61,355 nt of DNA from the IMG/VR virus record IMGVR_UViG_3300037180_000072, positions 1-61,355 of that record; one strand, written 5' to 3'. Positions within the stretch are counted from its first letter, which is position 1. Each line of letters begins with the position of its first letter. Positions 24,786 through 42,110 of this stretch are shown here, piece by piece. Position numbers and translations under genes: made by a program. Source of the DNA: a virus (taxonomy: Duplodnaviria > Caudoviricetes). The notes under the pieces were generated by a model. It made no database searches. It saw only the letters and a list, made by a program, of their open reading frames with translations, and was not told the DNA's origin.

Positions 24786-25376
24786 CTATTCGAGGACGTT
24801 GCCAATATTTCTCTGAATCATTTGCTCGCCGCCGTGGCGAAAATCTGCAAGCGTTTCTTGCCATCTTTGATCGTTCCATGCATCATTGGGCTCGCCGAAC
24901 TCCTCAAGCACCTGCTCCCATGTGATCGCGCCCTTCAGTAAGCAATAAACGATTACGGTGCGCCAGCCTCTTCGCTCTTCTGTCGGCAGATCGCGGTCGT
25001 CCACAATTGCGTACGAAAACTCCGTGAGCCACCCCTTCGGGAATCCAGTCAGAAATTGAATTCGCCCGTACTCCGAGGAGTACAGTCCCCAGTCATCGGG
25101 AAAATTTATCTGAGATTGTATGATCAGATGGGGATTGAGTTTTTGCAGCCGATAAATCAAATCGCTGGAGTGCATGCATTCGCCCTTGCGTCGGCTCCAG
25201 TCTGAAAACCAATCATGGTCGCCTTCGCGGTATCTCTGAAGTAAGGGCTCGATTTTCTGATCGATGTACCGGGCCTTGGCTTCGTCCCAAACTTCGAAGT
25301 CGGCAGGCTTCGCGTTCTTTACGCGTTCCCATGATTTGCGCTCGAAATGTTCTGCGGAAAATAAATCAAGAGCCAT
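24786..25376 (-). CDS. hypothetical protein
   Basis: Likely start MALDLF at 25376 (TAATG overlap with the lysin gene). Confidence 0.6.
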   Translation of the reverse strand: MALDLFSAEHFERKSWERVKNAKPADFEVWDEAKARYIDQKIEPLLQRYREGDHDWFSDWSRRKGECMHSSDLIYRLQKLNPHLIIQSQINFPDDWGLYSSEYGRIQFLTGFPKGWLTEFSYAIVDDRDLPTEERRGWRTVIVYCLLKGAITWEQVLEEFGEPNDAWNDQRWQETLADFRHGGEQMIQRNIGNVLE

Positions 25377-25810
25377 TATGCGTAAAATTTCTGCGAGCCA
25401 ATGGACGCGGTCAGCGCGTGGCCTTCCGTCCCCAGTCCATCCGGGCCCGCGATCACTCGCGTAAACCATGGGCTGTTCGCGGTCTTGGGATTTTCGTAGT
25501 AATGGGCGCCATCTGTTGGATCAGGATCGTCGCCATTCAATACTTGCGGGCAAAGTGAAACGCAGTATGCAAATTGCACGTCGCCGGGCGGAGGAATCAA
25601 GTTGAATTCGGCATCGGAGGTCACGCTCATACTGGTGAATTGGTTTTTCATGTAAATAGCGCCGTGAAGTGTTTTAGCAAAGCCGGGCGCGCCAACTCGA
25701 TTCTTGATGACGTGCGCCACCGCACGCATTCCGATCTGCCCTTGGCCGCGAGCCTCTTTCCAAACACACAGTTCCATGGATTGAAGATCGTTTGCGTCGT
25801 ACTCCAGCAT
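25376..25810 (-). CDS. cell wall hydrolase, SleB/Hydrolase_2 family (endolysin candidate)
   Basis: EARGQ...AVAHVIKNRV...NQFTS...DPTDGAHYY. Confidence 0.85.
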   Translation of the reverse strand: MLEYDANDLQSMELCVWKEARGQGQIGMRAVAHVIKNRVGAPGFAKTLHGAIYMKNQFTSMSVTSDAEFNLIPPPGDVQFAYCVSLCPQVLNGDDPDPTDGAHYYENPKTANSPWFTRVIAGPDGLGTEGHALTASIGSQKFYA

Positions 25811-25875
25811 TGTTGCCCCCTTCGTAACACGGCCATGTTAATTACCCCGGCCATGGTAAATATCTCAAATTTCTC

Positions 25876-25903
25876 TTGACAAGTCAACCCAGTTTGATAC
25901 CAT
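25876..25903 (+). promoter_or_regulatory. sigma70-type promoter for the plus-strand ncRNA locus
   Basis: TTGACA-16-TACCAT with a TGn extended -10. Confidence 0.55.
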
Positions 25904-25907
25904 GTGT

Positions 25908-26018
25908 TCGAGGCTGACACCTTAGTCCGGGTTGGATAGTGGTCCCGGAGTGAGCGCTAAATGGACCCGAGGCGGGCGCGCTCCATGGATGTGGGATCGT
26001 CACCCACCGGCCTCGACC
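25908..26018 (+). ncRNA. tRNA-like RNA domain
   Basis: TCGAGGCTG pairs with CGGCCTCGA; T-arm-like GTGGG-ATCGTCA-CCCAC stacked directly on it; TCCGGG/CCCGGA hairpin; no canonical anticodon arm. Confidence 0.5.
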
Positions 26019-26021
26019 TTT

Positions 26022-26258
26022 TGAGTTAGGGTTGGCGACTGATAATCGCCAAGGGGGCTAACAAGCTCTCTGCGGGTCTCGAAAAGATGCACTTGACTGT
26101 GCTAACCGCACCCTGAATTAGTCGCATCTGCGTAAACTGGTCTCATGGATCGAGGGCGCAGAATAAAGTCGGGCGACAAGCGCCAGTGGCTTCGTAATGG
26201 ACGACCGGGTAACGCCGCCTATCCTACGAAGACTAATCACTGAGAAGCAGCCCGCAAA
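26022..26258 (+). ncRNA. putative structured ncRNA
   Basis: Nested helices TTGGCGA/TCGCCAA, TGCGGG/CCCGCA, AGATGC/GCATCT, CAGTG/CACTG, CTTCGTA/TACGAAG in an interval with no convincing ORF. Confidence 0.45.
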
Positions 26259-26447
26259 CCTTCGAAATGCCCAAGAAACCAAATCTCCCGCAGCCAGAAG
26301 AAAAACTTTGGTCCCAGCCCCACGTCTGTCGAATTTGCGGCGCAACCTGGGACTGCCACTACTCGCTCTGCTGGCTCCCTTACGAAACGACTTGCGTCGC
26401 GTGCCCCTGTGGCCCACTTGTCTGCGGGTACATAGAGCCTTTCGCGC

Positions 26448-26762
26448 TCACTTGATCTCAGTCACGCTCGAATGCGCTGCCGGGTCCACACCTTGCTGCG
26501 GCCTGTATCCCGCAAATGTAAACGCATACCTTGCCGTCCGGCCTTCGGGCTTTAGCTCGGACAGTTTGAAATCCCAGAACGGATAAAGTGAATCCAGCTT
26601 GTCCGTAGTGTCCATCAGAATTTTGTCCACATTTTCCGGCCCATATCCTTGGCGCGGTCCAGCGCGGTAGACATGATTTGCTGGCGGGTAAACGTGCTCG
26701 GGGAAAACAATTCGCACCTCGACGCGCCGGAATAGTTTGTTGCCTGTTTTATCGCGGAGCAC
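26448..26762 (-). CDS. hypothetical protein
   Basis: 104 aa, coupled to the upstream ORF. Confidence 0.55.
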   Translation of the reverse strand: MLRDKTGNKLFRRVEVRIVFPEHVYPPANHVYRAGPRQGYGPENVDKILMDTTDKLDSLYPFWDFKLSELKPEGRTARYAFTFAGYRPQQGVDPAAHSSVTEIK

Positions 26763-27109
26763 TACCCTTCCCCACCCAAATCCGCCGGATGGGACTCATC
26801 CGCTTTTGACCCGACGACGGCCAGAGCCGCGCCCATCAGAAGAACTTCGGCGGCGCCCGGCTGAACTTCCGCAGACTCTGCGGCCAATTGCCGAACTCGG
26901 GCATCCGCATCGTTTCGATCTGAAATTTCAGCGATGGCGGCGTCGTACTGCGCCAGCAAAAACCGAATGTCGTCCGAAGTCACCGCCAGCCGCGAATTCA
27001 GACTGTTGCGGATGTCTTTGAGAATTTGTTCAGGGCCGCGTTCTAGCGCAGCACCCTTGGCACTGTTCTTGACCGCTCGCGCGGCGGCTTCTGCAACGGA
27101 ATGGCTCAT
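26762..27109 (-). CDS. hypothetical protein
   Basis: 115 aa, AAGGAG RBS, ATGA overlap. Confidence 0.55.
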   Translation of the reverse strand: MSHSVAEAAARAVKNSAKGAALERGPEQILKDIRNSLNSRLAVTSDDIRFLLAQYDAAIAEISDRNDADARVRQLAAESAEVQPGAAEVLLMGAALAVVGSKADESHPADLGGEG

Positions 27110-37804: not shown

Positions 37805-40045
37805 CTATTTGTGATATACCGGGCCTTCCCAGCCTTCGGCACCTAAAATCAAACCGGGCGCCCACTTGGGAACGTCAACCACGGTTTCAATCAGTGCATC
37901 AAGGCGCAATCCACTCTCGGGTTCCTCACAAGCAATCTCATCGTGAAATAAACCCCAAATATGGAAGCCGCGATTATCGGCCAATTTTATACTGTGTAAA
38001 AGATCGTCACGAGCCATTGCTTGAATTGCGTTTTCGCAAAGCTTTCCGCCATACGTTTTTACGCGTCCCCACTTGTTGTGCTTTTTCTGAACACGGCCAT
38101 CGGCGCCCGTAGTTGAACTGTGCTCGACGCCGTCATAGGAAATATTTAGAACCTGAAAGGGTCTTCCCGTTTTTTTACTGACGAGTGTGACCTCTTCTAG
38201 TTTTGGATTCAAATAGTGCAGCGCTCTGCCGGACGGAAGCTCCATAACTATCAGGTACCCACCACCTATTAGAGATCGTCGCCGGAAAGCGATCACGCAC
38301 TGTTTGCCCCCTTTGGGGTGCGGTAGCCATTTTTGTTGCCATCTGTTCCACGTCGCTTCACCCACTTTGATAACTCCGCCACGCATCAAAACCTGTTTGA
38401 ACGCCTCTTCCAGATCGCTCCAGAACTGGACAACTTCGGGGTATGCTGACCGAAAAATATCCACGGCTTCTTGCGCTTCTTCTTTGGTCATATCCACGCC
38501 GCAGGTACTTAACGCGTATCCCCATAGGCCACCACGCGTGGGATCGCCGTACTCGTTCATTTTCATTTCACCGCCACCCTGTCCGAATCCAGCAGCTAGG
38601 GTAGCAGCTTTGAATTTTTGTCGATCATCTTCGTTGCCTGCGGCATAGTCCGCCCACAGTTCAGCATAGGTTTTCTTAGTTAGTTTTGTACCGTAGGAAA
38701 GATAGGGATCGCCCCCGTCTTTCTTTGAATGCCTGAAAACGTCCAGCATCGCGTCACAACCCGCAGCCCAGCCCAACATGCGGTTCTCGATAGCGTTTTT
38801 GTCTGCGACAACAAACCGATTTCCGGGTTTAGCCTGAAACAGCGAGCGCATAAGCGTGATCACAAAACTTACAACAGTGACTGAGTCTTTTTTATTTTTT
38901 ACGTTTGTGAATTCGCGAACGATTCCGTCATAGTCTTCGCGCTCCAAAAGATCGAGCGCTAACTCCAGCTTTTTCCTGACCGCCTTCTCTCCGCGTGACA
39001 GGTTCTGTACTTGTACTGATGCGTCTTCACCACCACCGCTTGCCCATCGCCCGGTTCGCGACGCTCCTAAGTATCGAAACTGGTACCTAATCCGGTCATC
39101 ATCCGAGATAAGTTCTAGCATTTTTTCAATTTTGGTGTACGAAGATTTGCGTGTAGACAGCCGGATGTCCAACACCTCGCGGCACTCGGGAGTGATTAGC
39201 GAATCCGGTTTGTCTAATTCAACTCGAATGGTCGGAGCGCGCAAAGACTCTAAAGTGTACCCGCGTGCGTGTACCCATTCTTTCATTTGCGGGTCAGAAT
39301 TGGGATTCTCCAAACCCGTTTTTTCTTTGAGAAGCGTTTGCTGTTCGCCCAGAAAACGCAAAGCTAACCGCAAACCTTTTTCTGCAAGATCGCGACGGGT
39401 AGGTATACCAAACTGATTGATCTTTTGGTCCAAAAACCAACCACGCCATTCGTGTTCGGGAAATTGAATTTTGAGTAGTCGGTACCACAGGTCTCGTTCA
39501 GCGCGTGTGTCCCGTTTGCAGTACTCGCCGTATTCCTCAAACTCTCGGGGATGGGTATTGTGATCACGAAACAGTGGAGGTGCGATGCCAAACAAAGTCA
39601 TATTGCCGCCCATGCTTACCGGCTGGCAGAACATATCTTTGAGCGCTTCGCCTCGCTCATCTTTCCTATGGGGCATTTTTAAAATGTCGGCAACGTCTTC
39701 CAAATAGCCGGGCAAAGATAAGGCGTGCGCCAAGACAATCGGGTCTCGGAATCGCTCGGTCGGGAGATCGATCTTCATTCCGTATTTGAGAATTTGCTGC
39801 TCAAATATGGAGTGCCATGCGACGATGATTATCTTGGGATCATGCAGGAGTTTGAGCAAGCGCTTTGGTGCGGGGCCAAGATGCGGTAGCCACAACTGGA
39901 TTTCTTCGTCGTCGGCGGCCCAGCCGAGCATGCTAATGCCCAAGGATGGGTGCTTGGCGTAGCGATCAAGTCCGACAACGGTCAAATCGAGGAGATTGAA
40001 GGTCTCAAAATCAGCAAACAAATATTGTACAGGCAAGCTGGTCAC
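37805..40045 (-). CDS. DNA polymerase, family A (SPO2/APSE-like) with 3'-5' exonuclease
   Basis: ADFETF exo I; TGRWAS; D..AIENR motif A; RQ..K..L..GFG motif B; TYGGKLCENAIQA; HDEI motif C. Confidence 0.9.
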   Translation of the reverse strand: MTSLPVQYLFADFETFNLLDLTVVGLDRYAKHPSLGISMLGWAADDEEIQLWLPHLGPAPKRLLKLLHDPKIIIVAWHSIFEQQILKYGMKIDLPTERFRDPIVLAHALSLPGYLEDVADILKMPHRKDERGEALKDMFCQPVSMGGNMTLFGIAPPLFRDHNTHPREFEEYGEYCKRDTRAERDLWYRLLKIQFPEHEWRGWFLDQKINQFGIPTRRDLAEKGLRLALRFLGEQQTLLKEKTGLENPNSDPQMKEWVHARGYTLESLRAPTIRVELDKPDSLITPECREVLDIRLSTRKSSYTKIEKMLELISDDDRIRYQFRYLGASRTGRWASGGGEDASVQVQNLSRGEKAVRKKLELALDLLEREDYDGIVREFTNVKNKKDSVTVVSFVITLMRSLFQAKPGNRFVVADKNAIENRMLGWAAGCDAMLDVFRHSKKDGGDPYLSYGTKLTKKTYAELWADYAAGNEDDRQKFKAATLAAGFGQGGGEMKMNEYGDPTRGGLWGYALSTCGVDMTKEEAQEAVDIFRSAYPEVVQFWSDLEEAFKQVLMRGGVIKVGEATWNRWQQKWLPHPKGGKQCVIAFRRRSLIGGGYLIVMELPSGRALHYLNPKLEEVTLVSKKTGRPFQVLNISYDGVEHSSTTGADGRVQKKHNKWGRVKTYGGKLCENAIQAMARDDLLHSIKLADNRGFHIWGLFHDEIACEEPESGLRLDALIETVVDVPKWAPGLILGAEGWEGPVYHK

Positions 40046-40638
40046 CGATTGGCAGTTTCACGTTCTCGAATTATGTTCAGGTGCTCCGTGACGGAATGAA
40101 CTCGGAGTAGCGCGTCCGCATGCCGGTTCCACGGCTGATCGAGTAAGAAAGCGGTCACGCCCGGAGTCGCGTTTAATTCGCTCACAGTCGGGGCGAGGTC
40201 GTCGAGGTGGTACTTCAGCCCGAGTCCCTGGAATAAATGCTGTTTGTGAGCAGGATCGGCGACCTGCAGCACCGTACTGTATCCGGCGCGGGGCCACAGA
40301 TGTCGGTCGTGCAGCCAGCGGGCAGATTGGACCGATGCGGGTTCGCCGATGGTATTGACGCGGCTGGTGATGAAGAAAATTTCGTCGTCGGGTTTGATAC
40401 CTTGCTGGAGTTCGGAGAGGCCGGGCAGAGCACCCATGTTCTCCCAAAAATAAGGTACGTTTCGAATGTCCCGCCAAACTTCGGCCATTTGCGCTTTCGT
40501 GAGATATTGGCTGTAGTCCCAGTCGGATGGTCCGGTGAAATCGGGCGGAAACTTTCCGGGCCATCGCAAATTTGCGATAGCGACGAGACTGGCGCTGAAA
40601 TTGCAAATCACGCCGTCGAGGTCAATTGCGAATCGCAT
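40042..40638 (-). CDS. HAD-family 5'(3')-deoxyribonucleotidase-like protein
   Basis: IDLDGV motif I; FITSR; LDD; DQPWN. Confidence 0.8.
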   Translation of the reverse strand: MRFAIDLDGVICNFSASLVAIANLRWPGKFPPDFTGPSDWDYSQYLTKAQMAEVWRDIRNVPYFWENMGALPGLSELQQGIKPDDEIFFITSRVNTIGEPASVQSARWLHDRHLWPRAGYSTVLQVADPAHKQHLFQGLGLKYHLDDLAPTVSELNATPGVTAFLLDQPWNRHADALLRVHSVTEHLNIIRERETANR

Positions 40639-41111
40639 TATCGTTGCTCCGGCGGTTTCGCGGCCCTCGCGATTGGCGCACCTTCGGCTTCGAGTTCGAG
40701 TTGTAGAATGGCAAGCGCTCTCCAGGCAAGTTTTGCGGAGTGATACATTCCGTCAGTGTCTTTGCTGCCGCGCTCGACCATGTGTCGCAATAATGCATCT
40801 GCCTGGTCGCCGGACTTCTCTCGCGCCCAGTGTAGCGGCGAATCGGGACCGTTGTGTTGCAAGTTACCTTGGCGCGAAACCTTCGCGACTTCGGCCAAAG
40901 CGGAACTGAAATAGTCCAAGACTCCCGTGGCGAGGGGAACTTCTTTTCGCGATTTGGAATCTGTGGGCAGAGTTGATTTTGGTTCAGTAATTGAAACGGC
41001 ATAGTGGATTAAAGAGCCGGGATTTTCCCCACAAACCGCGCACTCCGTCCCCATCAGGTCGGCCAGTGATGACTCCGACGGCACAAACGCGTGTATTCCT
41101 GCTCTCGGCAT
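40638..41111 (-). CDS. dATP/dGTP diphosphohydrolase-like protein (DUF5664-like)
   Basis: RKEVPLATGVLDYFSSALAEVAKVS..GN.QH..LHWAR..DALLRH..H.AKLAWRALA. Confidence 0.65.
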   Translation of the reverse strand: MPRAGIHAFVPSESSLADLMGTECAVCGENPGSLIHYAVSITEPKSTLPTDSKSRKEVPLATGVLDYFSSALAEVAKVSRQGNLQHNGPDSPLHWAREKSGDQADALLRHMVERGSKDTDGMYHSAKLAWRALAILQLELEAEGAPIARAAKPPEQR

Positions 41112-41114
41112 GTC

Positions 41115-42110
41115 TCAACCTTTCTTGAACAAAATTTCCCGTAAGGCGGCGTCGATCTTGGCTGCGATCTCGGGATGTTCTACCAGAAATGTGCGAGCGT
41201 TGTCAATTCCTTGGCCCAGACGTTCGCCGCCGTAGGAGAACCAGTTTCCGCTACGCTCCACTACTTTGTATTCTTCGCCGATTTTTAGTAAATCCCACTC
41301 AGCGGATATGCCGTGCCCGTACAAAAGTCGAACTTCCGCTTCCTGAAAAGGAGCGGCCATTTTGTTTTTTATGACCTTGATGCGCGTTTCCGCGCCAACG
41401 GGTTTGTCGTTTTCTTTGATGATTTGGGTTTTGCGGATGTCCAATCGCACGGACGAGAAAAACTTGAGCGCGCGGCCACCTGATGTAGTTTCATTGCTGC
41501 CGAACATCACGCCGATTTTTTCGCGAATCTGATTGATGAAAAATAAAATGGTGTGGGTCTTGTTCGTGACCGCAGTCAGTTTACGCATCGCCTGTGACAT
41601 CATGCGTGCTTGAACACCCATCTGGGCATCTCCGAAATCGCCTTCAAGTTCGGAGCGAGGCACCAGCGCGGCCACGGAGTCGATAACGATGATGGCAAAT
41701 TTGCCGGATTCAACCAAGGACTCGGTGATCTCAAGCGCTTGCTCTCCGTTATCTGGCTGAGAAATAAACAAATGGTCTACGTCTACGCCGAGCGCACGAG
41801 CATAGGCCGGGTCCAGCGCTTGTTCAGCGTCGATATATGCAGCTTTGTGCCCTAGTTTTTGTGCTTCGGCGACAACGTGTAACGCCAGTGTGGACTTTCC
41901 CCCGGATTCAGGTCCAAACGCTTCTACTACGCGGCCACGGGGGAGGCCGCCGATGCCCAAAGCTTTATCGAGCGCGAGGGAGGAAGTAGATATGACATCT
42001 ACGGGCGTGAAGTTTTTGCTGCCGAGAAGCATTATGCTTCCCTTGCCGTGCTGCTTCTCGATTGCAGATATTACTTCCGCGAGACTTTGGGTCTCTTCAG
42101 TTTTGCTCAT
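41115..42110 (-). CDS. recA: recombinase RecA
   Basis: [53 protein letters not shown]. Confidence 0.95.

What the first reader, a model, noticed from the sequence alone, without database searches (positions are those of the whole stretch)
25876..26258. Counter-oriented ~350-nt structured ncRNA locus opening with a tRNA-like domain
Seen: the genome is almost entirely minus-strand, but this gap between the lysin gene and the early block has a plus-strand TTGACA-16-TGnTACCAT promoter. It is followed at once by a 9-bp closing stem (TCGAGGCTG 25908..25916 / CGGCCTCGA 26008..26016) with a T-arm-like hairpin (GTGGG-ATCGTCA-CCCAC) stacked directly on it, ending ...GACC. The D and anticodon regions are replaced by larger hairpins. 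A second multi-helix domain follows: TTGGCGA/TCGCCAA; TGCGGG 26071 / CCCGCA 26251; AGATGC/GCATCT; CAGTG/CACTG; CTTCGTA/TACGAAG. I see no tmRNA G3-U70 pair or RNase P signature. Inference: an undescribed phage ncRNA, perhaps a tRNA mimic acting as a decoy for anticodon nucleases or as an RNase P processing tag.
Basis: partly seen in the sequence, partly recalled or inferred. Interest (0 to 1): 0.8.

Follow-up and report, generated by a model that had tools for sequence, protein, structure and literature searches.

The report
Accessory structured RNA in peat phage
A gene-free stretch of an uncultured peat and lake phage most likely makes a folded non-coding RNA of about 350 bases whose last third belongs to a small, uncatalogued RNA family shared with a few other phages, while its proposed tRNA-like opening is no better than chance.

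Summary
The plus-strand promoter, the stems and the absence of any known RNA family are real. The interpretation needs revision.

(1) The promoter (25876-25903) is half of a conserved two-way promoter. In 7 of 12 related contigs it drives a conserved 58-69 aa cysteine-rich ORF (window 26267-26455) with no leader. In the window and in one relative an RNA has been inserted between promoter and ORF. Two other relatives carry small protein ORFs at that spot.

(2) The 3' third (26127-26256) is the best-supported part. It has a hairpin (P1) whose 5-6 bp stem covaries around a near-invariant 24-nt loop, followed by a second arm whose P3 helix also covaries. I found five distinct members in non-syntenic phage contexts. 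None matches Rfam.

(3) The tRNA-like 5' domain folds as described, but it is no more stable than shuffled sequence. Its geometry is expected by chance, and it fails the T-loop, CCA, ARAGORN and Rfam tests. No homologue could be fetched.

(4) RNA-library contigs from three studies lie on 25919-26248.

Verdict: a real accessory ncRNA gene of a new small family, function unknown, most likely a trans-acting RNA with a conserved recognition loop. The scan has noted other orphan peat-phage RNAs before, but none with this sequence.

The parts
25876..25903 (+). Sigma-70-type promoter (TTGACA, 16 nt, TG-n-TACCAT). The inferred transcript start is near 25909-25911.
   Evidence: The palindrome TTGACnnGTCAA is conserved in L026/L081, L027, L075 and L077.
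25859..25887 (-). Divergent promoter (TTGACT, 17 nt, GATATT) for the endolysin side. Its -35 box overlaps that of the + promoter.
   Evidence: The same two-way layout occurs in L027.
25908..26016 (+). 5' domain: 9-bp closing stem (25908-16/26008-16), inner hairpins, and the 'T-arm-like' hairpin at 25991-26007. Specific to this phage and its close strains.
   Evidence: Fold (z = -0.58). Chance tests. Variant 25915 T>C makes the U-G pair C-G, and variant 25997 T>C lies in the loop. No homologue in 5 genomes. A relative's RNA contig matches 25944-25984 (record 7).
26021..26122 (+). Middle domain of nested hairpins, including TTGGCGA/TCGCCAA.
   Evidence: Fold: -39.1 kcal/mol, z = -2.82, 4 of 200 shuffles as good. 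No homologue was found.
26127..26162 (+). P1 hairpin of the conserved core. The stem is 26127-32/26157-62. The near-invariant loop is 26133-26156 (TAAACTGGTCTCATGGATCGAGGG), with an inner GGTC/GATC helix.
   Evidence: 6 of 6 stem pairs change on both sides across 5 sequences; the covariance model separates members at 59-61 bits from all else at <=28 bits.
26170..26254 (+). Second arm of the core: outer helix 26170-74/26250-54, P3 26184-88/26238-42, P4 26190-96/26225-31, with conserved junction bases.
   Evidence: Fold. P3 has 5 of 6 pairs changed on both sides in 4 sequences. RNAalifold finds P1, P3 and an outer helix on its own.
26267..26455 (+). Conserved 62-aa cysteine-rich ORF (His plus 8 Cys invariant). 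It has no Shine-Dalgarno sequence in the window and is leaderless in most relatives.
25376..25810 (-). Endolysin (Hydrolase_2), the divergent neighbour.
26448..26762 (-). Conserved 104-aa gene of unknown function, last gene of the minus-strand early block and convergent with the Cys ORF. It was used to fetch relatives.

Best explanation
The stretch 25876-26262 is an accessory (moron-like) non-coding RNA unit on the + strand. A conserved two-way sigma-70-type promoter normally drives a leaderless mRNA for a small Zn-finger-like cysteine-rich protein. In this phage about 355 nt of structured RNA has been inserted between the transcript start and that ORF.

The RNA is a chain of three self-contained domains. 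Two of them (25908-26016 and 26021-26122) are specific to this phage lineage. The third (26127-26256) is a core shared with four other phage contigs in unrelated genomic places.

Shown:
- conservation of the promoter and the ORF;
- the insertion-site logic;
- the covarying P1 and P3 helices around near-invariant unpaired bases;
- strand assignment from G-U pairs;
- presence in RNA libraries.

Inferred: the core is the working part. Its invariant 24-nt P1 loop and conserved junction bases form a recognition surface for a conserved partner (a host or phage protein, or an RNA). The RNA acts in trans as a stable effector made from the moment the promoter fires, for example as a decoy, sponge or cofactor in host take-over or counter-defence. 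The lineage-specific domains are scaffolding or stabilisers. I put the trans-acting role at roughly 45% and do not name a partner.
For: - Promoter. It is conserved with overlapping -35 boxes in relatives.
- ORF: 12 contigs carry the Cys ORF with His plus 8 Cys invariant.
- Leaderless layout: in 7 contigs (L070, L071, L074, L075, L079, L080, L081) the start codon lies 5-8 nt after a -10-like hexamer.
- Insertion site: L077 and L076 have protein ORFs inserted there, and the window and L027 have the RNA.
- Core family: five distinct members, the window, L027, L028, L036 and L060.
- P1: 6 of 6 stem pairs change on both sides, 93% of cells are paired, 0 of 500 shuffles reach the covariation score, and slid controls pair in <=50% of cells.
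- P3: 5 of 6 pairs change on both sides. RNAalifold finds P1 and P3 independently.
- Strand: G-U pairs are invariant on the + strand only.
- Covariance model: members score 59-61 bits and all else <=28 bits, with one copy per genome.
- Contexts are non-syntenic. The core is absent from two whole relatives' contigs, one of them 97% complete.
- The block shared by L027 and L060 is read in different frames, so it is not coding.
- RNA-library contigs of 3 runs from 3 studies lie on 25919-26155 (1 difference), 26057-26248 (0) and 26073-26219 (0). Three further RNA contigs are diverged relatives of parts of it.
Against: - Only 5 family members are known (4 for P3), so covariation rests on few sequences. 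The shuffle control is not a probability.
- Contigs carry no strand. RNA libraries can hold DNA, and the runs were chosen because they hold words of this stretch.
- The whole region is not more stable than shuffles on the + strand (z = -0.79). The - strand gives z = -1.91.
- No terminator separates the RNA from the ORF in the window, so it could simply be a long 5' leader.
- The two lineage-specific domains have no fetched homologue.
- L028 fits P1 well but fits the second arm only loosely.
- No partner, target or complementary site was found.
Confidence: 0.62

Rival explanations
1. Cis-acting leader. The core works on its own transcript as a riboswitch-like sensor, a put-like processive antiterminator acting on RNA polymerase, or a processing signal whose cleavage just before 26267 would recreate the leaderless mRNA of the Cys ORF.
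For: - It sits directly after a promoter in L027 and within the leader in the window.
- No terminator lies before the ORF, and the window ORF has no Shine-Dalgarno although its relatives are leaderless.
- Covarying stems around invariant unpaired bases are also the signature of aptamers and of put RNAs (the latter recalled).
- L060 has a terminator-like hairpin 57 nt after the core.
Against: - Downstream genes differ in 3 of 5 members.
- 10 of 12 phages with the Cys ORF lack the RNA.
- In L036 the next gene has its own promoter.
- The terminator-like hairpin in L060 is an insertion inside a longer stretch conserved with L027.
- No Rfam riboswitch matches.
Confidence: 0.25
2. tRNA mimic. The 5' domain presents an acceptor/T-arm minihelix that is recognised by RNase P, the CCA-adding enzyme or anticodon nucleases.
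For: - A 9-bp stem is stacked directly on a 5-bp/7-nt hairpin, starting 5 nt after the -10 hexamer, at or just before the inferred transcript start near 25909-25911.
- Variant 25915 T>C converts U-G to C-G.
- At this exact place, chance expectation for the 9-bp version is low, although it is 0.30 per window overall.
Against: - ARAGORN and the Rfam tRNA and tmRNA models find nothing.
- Folding z = -0.58, and the 7-bp geometry is at chance frequency.
- The loop AUCGUCA departs from the recalled T-loop consensus at positions 54 and 58, and a natural variant changes 'U55'.
- The 3' side reads GACCU, not NCCA.
- There is no D or anticodon arm, and position 3-70 is G-C.
- It is absent from L027, from the other family members and from 5 searched genomes.
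- In one relative's RNA contig the stretch 25985-26126, which holds the hairpin and the 3' strand, is replaced by 42 other letters.
Confidence: 0.07
3. Selfish or decaying insert. The core is a small mobile or recombination-prone DNA module, or a remnant of one, that lands in promoter-proximal gaps and is transcribed passively without serving the phage.
For: - Distribution is patchy and non-syntenic.
- The promoter-to-ORF junction is an insertion hot spot that also holds protein ORFs.
- Homing nucleases occur in these genomes (HNH and EndoVII).
Against: - Compensatory changes keep two helices while a 24-nt loop stays nearly invariant among otherwise unalignable flanks, which argues for selection on the folded strand.
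- No terminal repeats or target duplications were seen around it.
Confidence: 0.06

Closest known systems
Orphan candidate structured RNAs of phages (for example the 10,006 csRNAs predicted from IMG/VR and other viral sets; PMC10690425, abstract and outline read)
   Same: An intergenic, covariation-supported fold in uncultured phage contigs, with no assigned function and sometimes tRNA-like or upstream of genes.
   Different: Here the motif has a 24-nt near-invariant loop, occurs in non-syntenic places, and is embedded in a longer lineage-specific RNA.
GOLLD and ROOL large ornate RNAs of phages and prophages (Rfam families; paper seen only in the search listing)
   Same: Phage-borne, own promoter, multi-domain, function unknown, found in lake and environmental metagenomes.
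   Different: No match to their Rfam models at the gathering score or at E<=10. This RNA is much smaller (about 350 nt; core about 130 nt) and is not beside the phage's tRNA genes, which lie at 47.8 kb.
tRNA, tmRNA and tRNA-like processing tags (for example the RNase P-processed C4/CI immunity RNAs of P1/P4; recalled)
   Same: A terminal helix stacked on a 5-bp/7-nt hairpin at the 5' end of a counter-oriented phage transcript, between gene blocks.
   Different: It fails ARAGORN and the Rfam models, the T-loop consensus, the CCA end and G3-U70. It is not conserved in relatives.
Phage morons and HK022 put-type leader RNAs (recalled)
   Same: Extra cargo inserted next to a promoter between conserved genes. 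Two-arm RNA with conserved internal loops and covarying stems, directly after a promoter in L027.
   Different: No sequence or model match exists to test. In two members the element lies inside operons, far from any promoter.

Membership tests
tRNA / tRNA-like structure | Recognised by tRNA detectors (ARAGORN, Rfam tRNA model) | tested here: not met
   ARAGORN finds only tRNA-Thr and tRNA-Met at 47.8 kb. Rfam tRNA has no hit in 25700-26500 at E<=10.
tRNA / tRNA-like structure | 7-bp acceptor helix stacked directly on a 5-bp T stem with a 7-nt loop | tested here: inconclusive
   It is present (25910-16/26008-14 plus 25991-26007). The same geometry occurs 4 times in the window against 3.1 +/- 2.1 in simulations. 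The 9-bp version occurs once against a mean of 0.30.
tRNA / tRNA-like structure | T-loop consensus U54-U55-C56-R57-A58 (recalled) and a 3' NCCA end | tested here: not met
   The loop is AUCGUCA and the 3' side reads GACCU. A natural RNA-library variant has C at the second loop base, 25997.
tRNA / tRNA-like structure | D arm and anticodon arm | tested here: not met
   The fold has two unrelated hairpins in their place.
tmRNA | Detected by ARAGORN or the Rfam tmRNA models; G3-U70 pair (recalled) | tested here: not met
   Pair 25912-26012 is G-C.
Any Rfam 15 family (including RNase P, 6S, GOLLD, ROOL, riboswitches, ribozymes, C4 antisense RNA) | Covariance-model match | tested here: not met
   There is no hit at the gathering score on the window. 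There is none at E<=10 on 25700-26500 apart from a 9-bit Plant_SRP chance hit on the other strand outside the RNA. There is none at the element in L027, L028 or L036 at E<=5, nor in L060 400-1250 at E<=10.
Riboswitch / cis-regulatory leader | Consistent association with one class of downstream gene | tested here: not met
   The downstream gene is the Cys ORF in the window and L027, and three unrelated ORFs in L028, L036 and L060. 10 of 12 Cys-ORF contigs lack the RNA.
Riboswitch / cis-regulatory leader | Covarying helices around conserved unpaired bases | tested here: met
New motif family defined here (P1-loop core) | 5-6 bp variable stem closing the loop T[AG]AACTGGTCTCA-N1-2-GATCGAGGG | tested here: met
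   The window scores 61.2 bits with model R1. The five members score 59-61 bits and all else <=28 bits.
New motif family defined here (P1-loop core) | Second arm with the P3 helix followed by G[CG]U on the 5' side and preceded by NAU on the 3' side | tested here: met
   Window 26184-88/26238-42. L028 fits only loosely.
New motif family defined here (P1-loop core) | Long 3' extension closed by ATGCGCC/GGCGCRT, as in L027 and L060 | tested here: not met
   It is absent from the window. Local alignment of the window's 3' part against L060 scores 14, and 183 of 200 shuffles do as well. The L027/L060 extension is shown.

The most novel reading that the evidence does not exclude
The P1-loop core is a new class of phage RNA effector. 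Its invariant 24-nt loop and conserved junction bases form a catalytic or high-affinity site. Either it self-cleaves or directs cleavage, releasing a stable RNA and, in this phage, regenerating the leaderless mRNA of the zinc-finger-like gene. Or it titrates a conserved host defence or RNA-processing factor. Phages then exchange it as a free-standing RNA moron with interchangeable scaffold domains.
Probability: 0.15. Interest if true: 0.75.

Novelty: new member of a known kind. Interest (0 to 1): 0.5.

Why it matters
Phage non-coding RNAs with real comparative support are few, and their roles are mostly unknown. This one offers a compact, testable object: a core of about 130 nt with two covarying helices and a 24-nt loop that stays the same in phages that otherwise share no alignable sequence. 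That degree of conservation points to a conserved binding partner or chemistry.

It is present in RNA libraries from peat, so natural material exists to map its ends. The locus also shows an RNA gene landing in the same promoter-proximal slot where relatives carry protein morons, and converting a leaderless gene into one with a 355-nt leader. That makes it a natural experiment on leaderless translation.

If the RNA is only a fast-evolving accessory leader, the finding is ordinary.

Tried and rejected
- **tRNA-like reading:** tested and not supported.
- **Degenerate copy of the core in the 5' domain:** the local alignment score was 14, and 279 of 300 shuffles did as well. Model R1 finds only one site in the window.
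- **5' domain against other parts:** compared with the 5' or 3' parts of L060 and L027, nothing rose above shuffles. A circular-permutation relation to the L027/L060 extension occurred to me from short shared words (GCTAAA, ATAGTGG) but was not testable.
- **Pseudogene of the 156-aa ORF that L002 has at this place:** no tblastn match.
- **Coding on either strand:** the one-base length difference in the P1 loop shifts the frame between members. The L027/L060 block is read in different frames.
- **Antisense targets of the loop inside the phage:** only single 10-mers were found.
- **Similarity searches:** phage GenBank records gave no match, and neither did plasmids.
- **Other pattern hits:** these are 8 of 11 metagenome hits, 23 of 26 hits of the looser viral pattern, and all 3 GTDB genome hits. 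They lack the TAAAC part or complementary flanks and were dropped as chance hits. L031 has a one-base-longer loop but no flanking stem and was dropped for that reason.
- **Cys ORF:**
  - no homologue by word search;
  - no Pfam or PHROG family;
  - AlphaFold2 model with mean pLDDT 76.8;
  - no PDB fold match (best E = 0.66);
  - not found in the L060 and L028 contigs, which are incomplete.
- **Uncovered parts in RNA runs:** no RNA contig lay on 26272-26900, and only a weak variant piece lay on the lysin gene. I had no second read-laying run to test a silent stretch.
- **DNA runs that were not laid (X2, X4-X15):** these are used only as a hint of habitat (peat, bog, lake, permafrost).
- **Literature:**
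  - no paper holds the motif letters;
  - one topical search led to PMC10690425, whose supplements might list this motif but are closed;
  - earlier notes of this scan were searched by place, words and sequence, with no look-alike sequence.
- **Not used:** The search of protein representatives, complex prediction, the protein-atlas search.

Full report
**The observation.**

The window is a 61-kb virus record with nearly all genes on the minus strand. Between the endolysin gene (25376-25810, minus; Hydrolase_2) and the early block lies a plus-strand promoter, TTGACA-16-TACCAT with TG, at 25876-25903. The 9-bp stem 25908-16/26008-16 and the stacked hairpin 25991-26007 are in the sequence and in the minimum-energy fold. 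So are TTGGCGA/TCGCCAA, CAGTG/CACTG and CTTCGTA/TACGAAG.

ARAGORN finds only two tRNAs, at 47.8 kb. Rfam 15 gives nothing at the gathering score. At E<=10 on 25700-26500 it gives only a 9-bit chance hit on the other strand.

Energetically the picture is weak:

| Stretch | z-score |
|---|---|
| 25900-26265, + strand | -0.79 |
| 25900-26265, - strand | -1.91 |
| 5' domain | -0.58 |
| middle domain | -2.82 |
| 3' part | -1.87 |

**Context: a conserved promoter and a conserved downstream ORF.**

It is conserved at 59-60% in L002/L026 and L027. After I fetched relatives through the neighbouring 104-aa gene, it was found in 12 contigs in all, with one His and eight Cys invariant.

The promoter is conserved too. 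The palindrome TTGACnnGTCAA supplies overlapping -35 boxes for two divergent promoters.

In 7 relatives the start codon lies 5-8 nt after the -10-like hexamer, which is a leaderless layout. L077 carries a small ORF with a good ribosome site between promoter and Cys ORF. L076 carries a 109-aa ORF there. Only the window (about 365 nt) and L027 (about 320 nt) have a long non-coding insert. The slot is therefore an insertion hot spot, and the RNA is accessory cargo. In the window the Cys ORF has no Shine-Dalgarno sequence.

**A conserved core in the 3' third.**

Aligning the window with L027 exposed a shared block that starts GTAAACTGGTCTCA. Pattern scans of IMG/VR, JGI metagenomes and GTDB genomes gave five distinct carriers: the window, L027 (= L029, L037), L028 (= L035), L036 and L060 (inspected). 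All other pattern hits lack the 5' part or the complementary flanks and were dropped.

The block is the loop of a hairpin, P1. Its stem differs in every member yet stays paired. On the 5-sequence alignment:
- 6 of 6 stem pairs change on both sides;
- 93% of cells pair;
- 0 of 500 shuffles reach the covariation score;
- sliding the partner by 1-3 columns drops pairing to 21-50%.

A second arm follows. Its P3 helix (window 26184-88/26238-42) changes on both sides in 5 of 6 pairs among four sequences. RNAalifold finds P1, P3 and an outer helix on its own. Invariant G-U pairs place the fold on the plus strand.

A covariance model of P1 scores the five members at 59-61 bits and everything else in 352 kb at <=28 bits. 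It finds one copy per genome and none in two relatives' whole contigs, one of them 97% complete.

The contexts are not syntenic:
- after a promoter in L027;
- inside operons in L028 and L036;
- in a 570-nt gene-free stretch after tandem promoters in L060.

L027 and L060 share a further extension of about 200 nt, closed by a 7-bp helix and read in different frames, so it is not coding. The window lacks it. No Rfam family matches any member, and ARAGORN finds nothing in them.

**The tRNA-like 5' domain.**

The geometry is there, but a 7-bp stem stacked on a 5-bp/7-nt hairpin occurs 4 times in the window against 3.1 +/- 2.1 in simulations. With 9 bp it occurs once against a mean of 0.30, and 26 of 100 simulations had at least one.

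The loop AUCGUCA departs from the recalled T-loop consensus. The 3' side reads GACCU. Position 3-70 is G-C. There is no D or anticodon arm.

The domain has no counterpart in several comparisons:
- L026, L027 or the other Cys-ORF relatives;
- the rest of the RNA or the L060/L027 parts;
- five searched genomes.

Natural variants point both ways. 25915 T>C in a bog DNA contig turns the U-G pair of the closing stem into C-G. 25997 T>C in an RNA-library contig changes the base equivalent to U55. One relative's RNA contig matches 25944-25984, has 42 other letters, and then matches P1. So part of the domain travels with the core, but the hairpin and the 3' strand are not kept in recognisable form.

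**Expression and distribution.**

Words of 25700-26600 occur in DNA runs from peat, bog, lake, freshwater and permafrost, and at small share in five peat RNA runs. Laid on 25300-26900, RNA-library contigs of three runs from three studies cover 25919-26155 (1 difference), 26057-26248 (0) and 26073-26219 (0). Three more RNA contigs are diverged relatives of parts of the locus.

Contigs give no strand. The libraries may hold DNA, and the runs were chosen by this stretch. This shows presence in RNA libraries, not proven transcription.

**How it most likely works.**

The locus is an accessory RNA unit inserted into a leaderless early-type gene. Its conserved core, with two covarying arms around invariant unpaired bases, looks like a recognition or catalytic module. 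I favour a trans-acting stable RNA that binds a conserved partner (about 45%). The reasons are:
- the core moves between unrelated contexts;
- it is independent of the downstream gene;
- it is dispensable for the Cys ORF in 10 of 12 phages.

A cis role (sensor, put-like antiterminator, or a processing site that would recreate the leaderless mRNA) is the main rival (about 25%). The tRNA-mimic reading (about 7%) and a selfish remnant (about 6%) follow.

**Comparison, novelty and limits.**

It is not a member of tRNA, tmRNA, RNase P, GOLLD, ROOL or any other Rfam family. It resembles the many orphan candidate structured RNAs of phages (PMC10690425, abstract and outline read). Its supplementary lists, which might include this motif, were closed. 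I found no paper with the motif letters and no look-alike in earlier notes of this scan. The scan has, however, reported other orphan peat-phage RNAs.

The main limits are:
- only five members are known;
- there are no stranded reads;

Noticed in passing
window 26267-26455 and relatives (A7): A family of 58-69 aa proteins with an invariant His and 8 Cys (WSQPHVC..CG..W.C...C...C..C.CG..C), mostly encoded as leaderless genes divergent from the lysis gene. There is no Pfam or PHROG family. The AlphaFold2 model has mean pLDDT 76.8 and no PDB fold match.
   Followed up: partly
window 25825-25860: Two adjacent 18-nt direct repeats (TAACACGGCCATGTTAAT / TACCCCGGCCATGGTAAA) that also form a palindrome. 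They lie in the leader of the endolysin gene just beside the two-way promoter and may be an operator.
   Followed up: no
L077, about 190 nt between the palindromic promoter and the Cys ORF: A small ORF with a GGAGG ribosome site sits at the same slot where the window has the RNA. L076 has a 109-aa ORF there. The slot acts as an insertion hot spot.
   Followed up: partly
L060 428-500: Three promoter-like sites, each beginning TTGACA, spaced 22 nt apart upstream of the long form of the RNA. A sigma-factor-like ORF (judged by eye) diverges from them.
   Followed up: no
L027 2269-2601 (minus strand): A 110-aa ORF that looks to me like a LAGLIDADG-type homing endonuclease (by eye, not tested). It sits between the lysin gene and the two-way promoter.
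   Followed up: no
window 40042-41111: Adjacent NT5C-type 5'-nucleotidase and dATP/dGTP diphosphohydrolase N-terminal domain genes lie next to the DNA polymerase. RecA (41115-42110), ERF and EndoVII genes are nearby. This may be nucleotide-pool remodelling.
   Followed up: no
window 25984/26127 (RNA run X18, record 7): An RNA-library contig of a relative joins a match to 25944-25984 to a match to 26127-26162, with 42 other letters in place of 142. This is a shorter natural version of the RNA, and I could not read its sequence.
   Followed up: no
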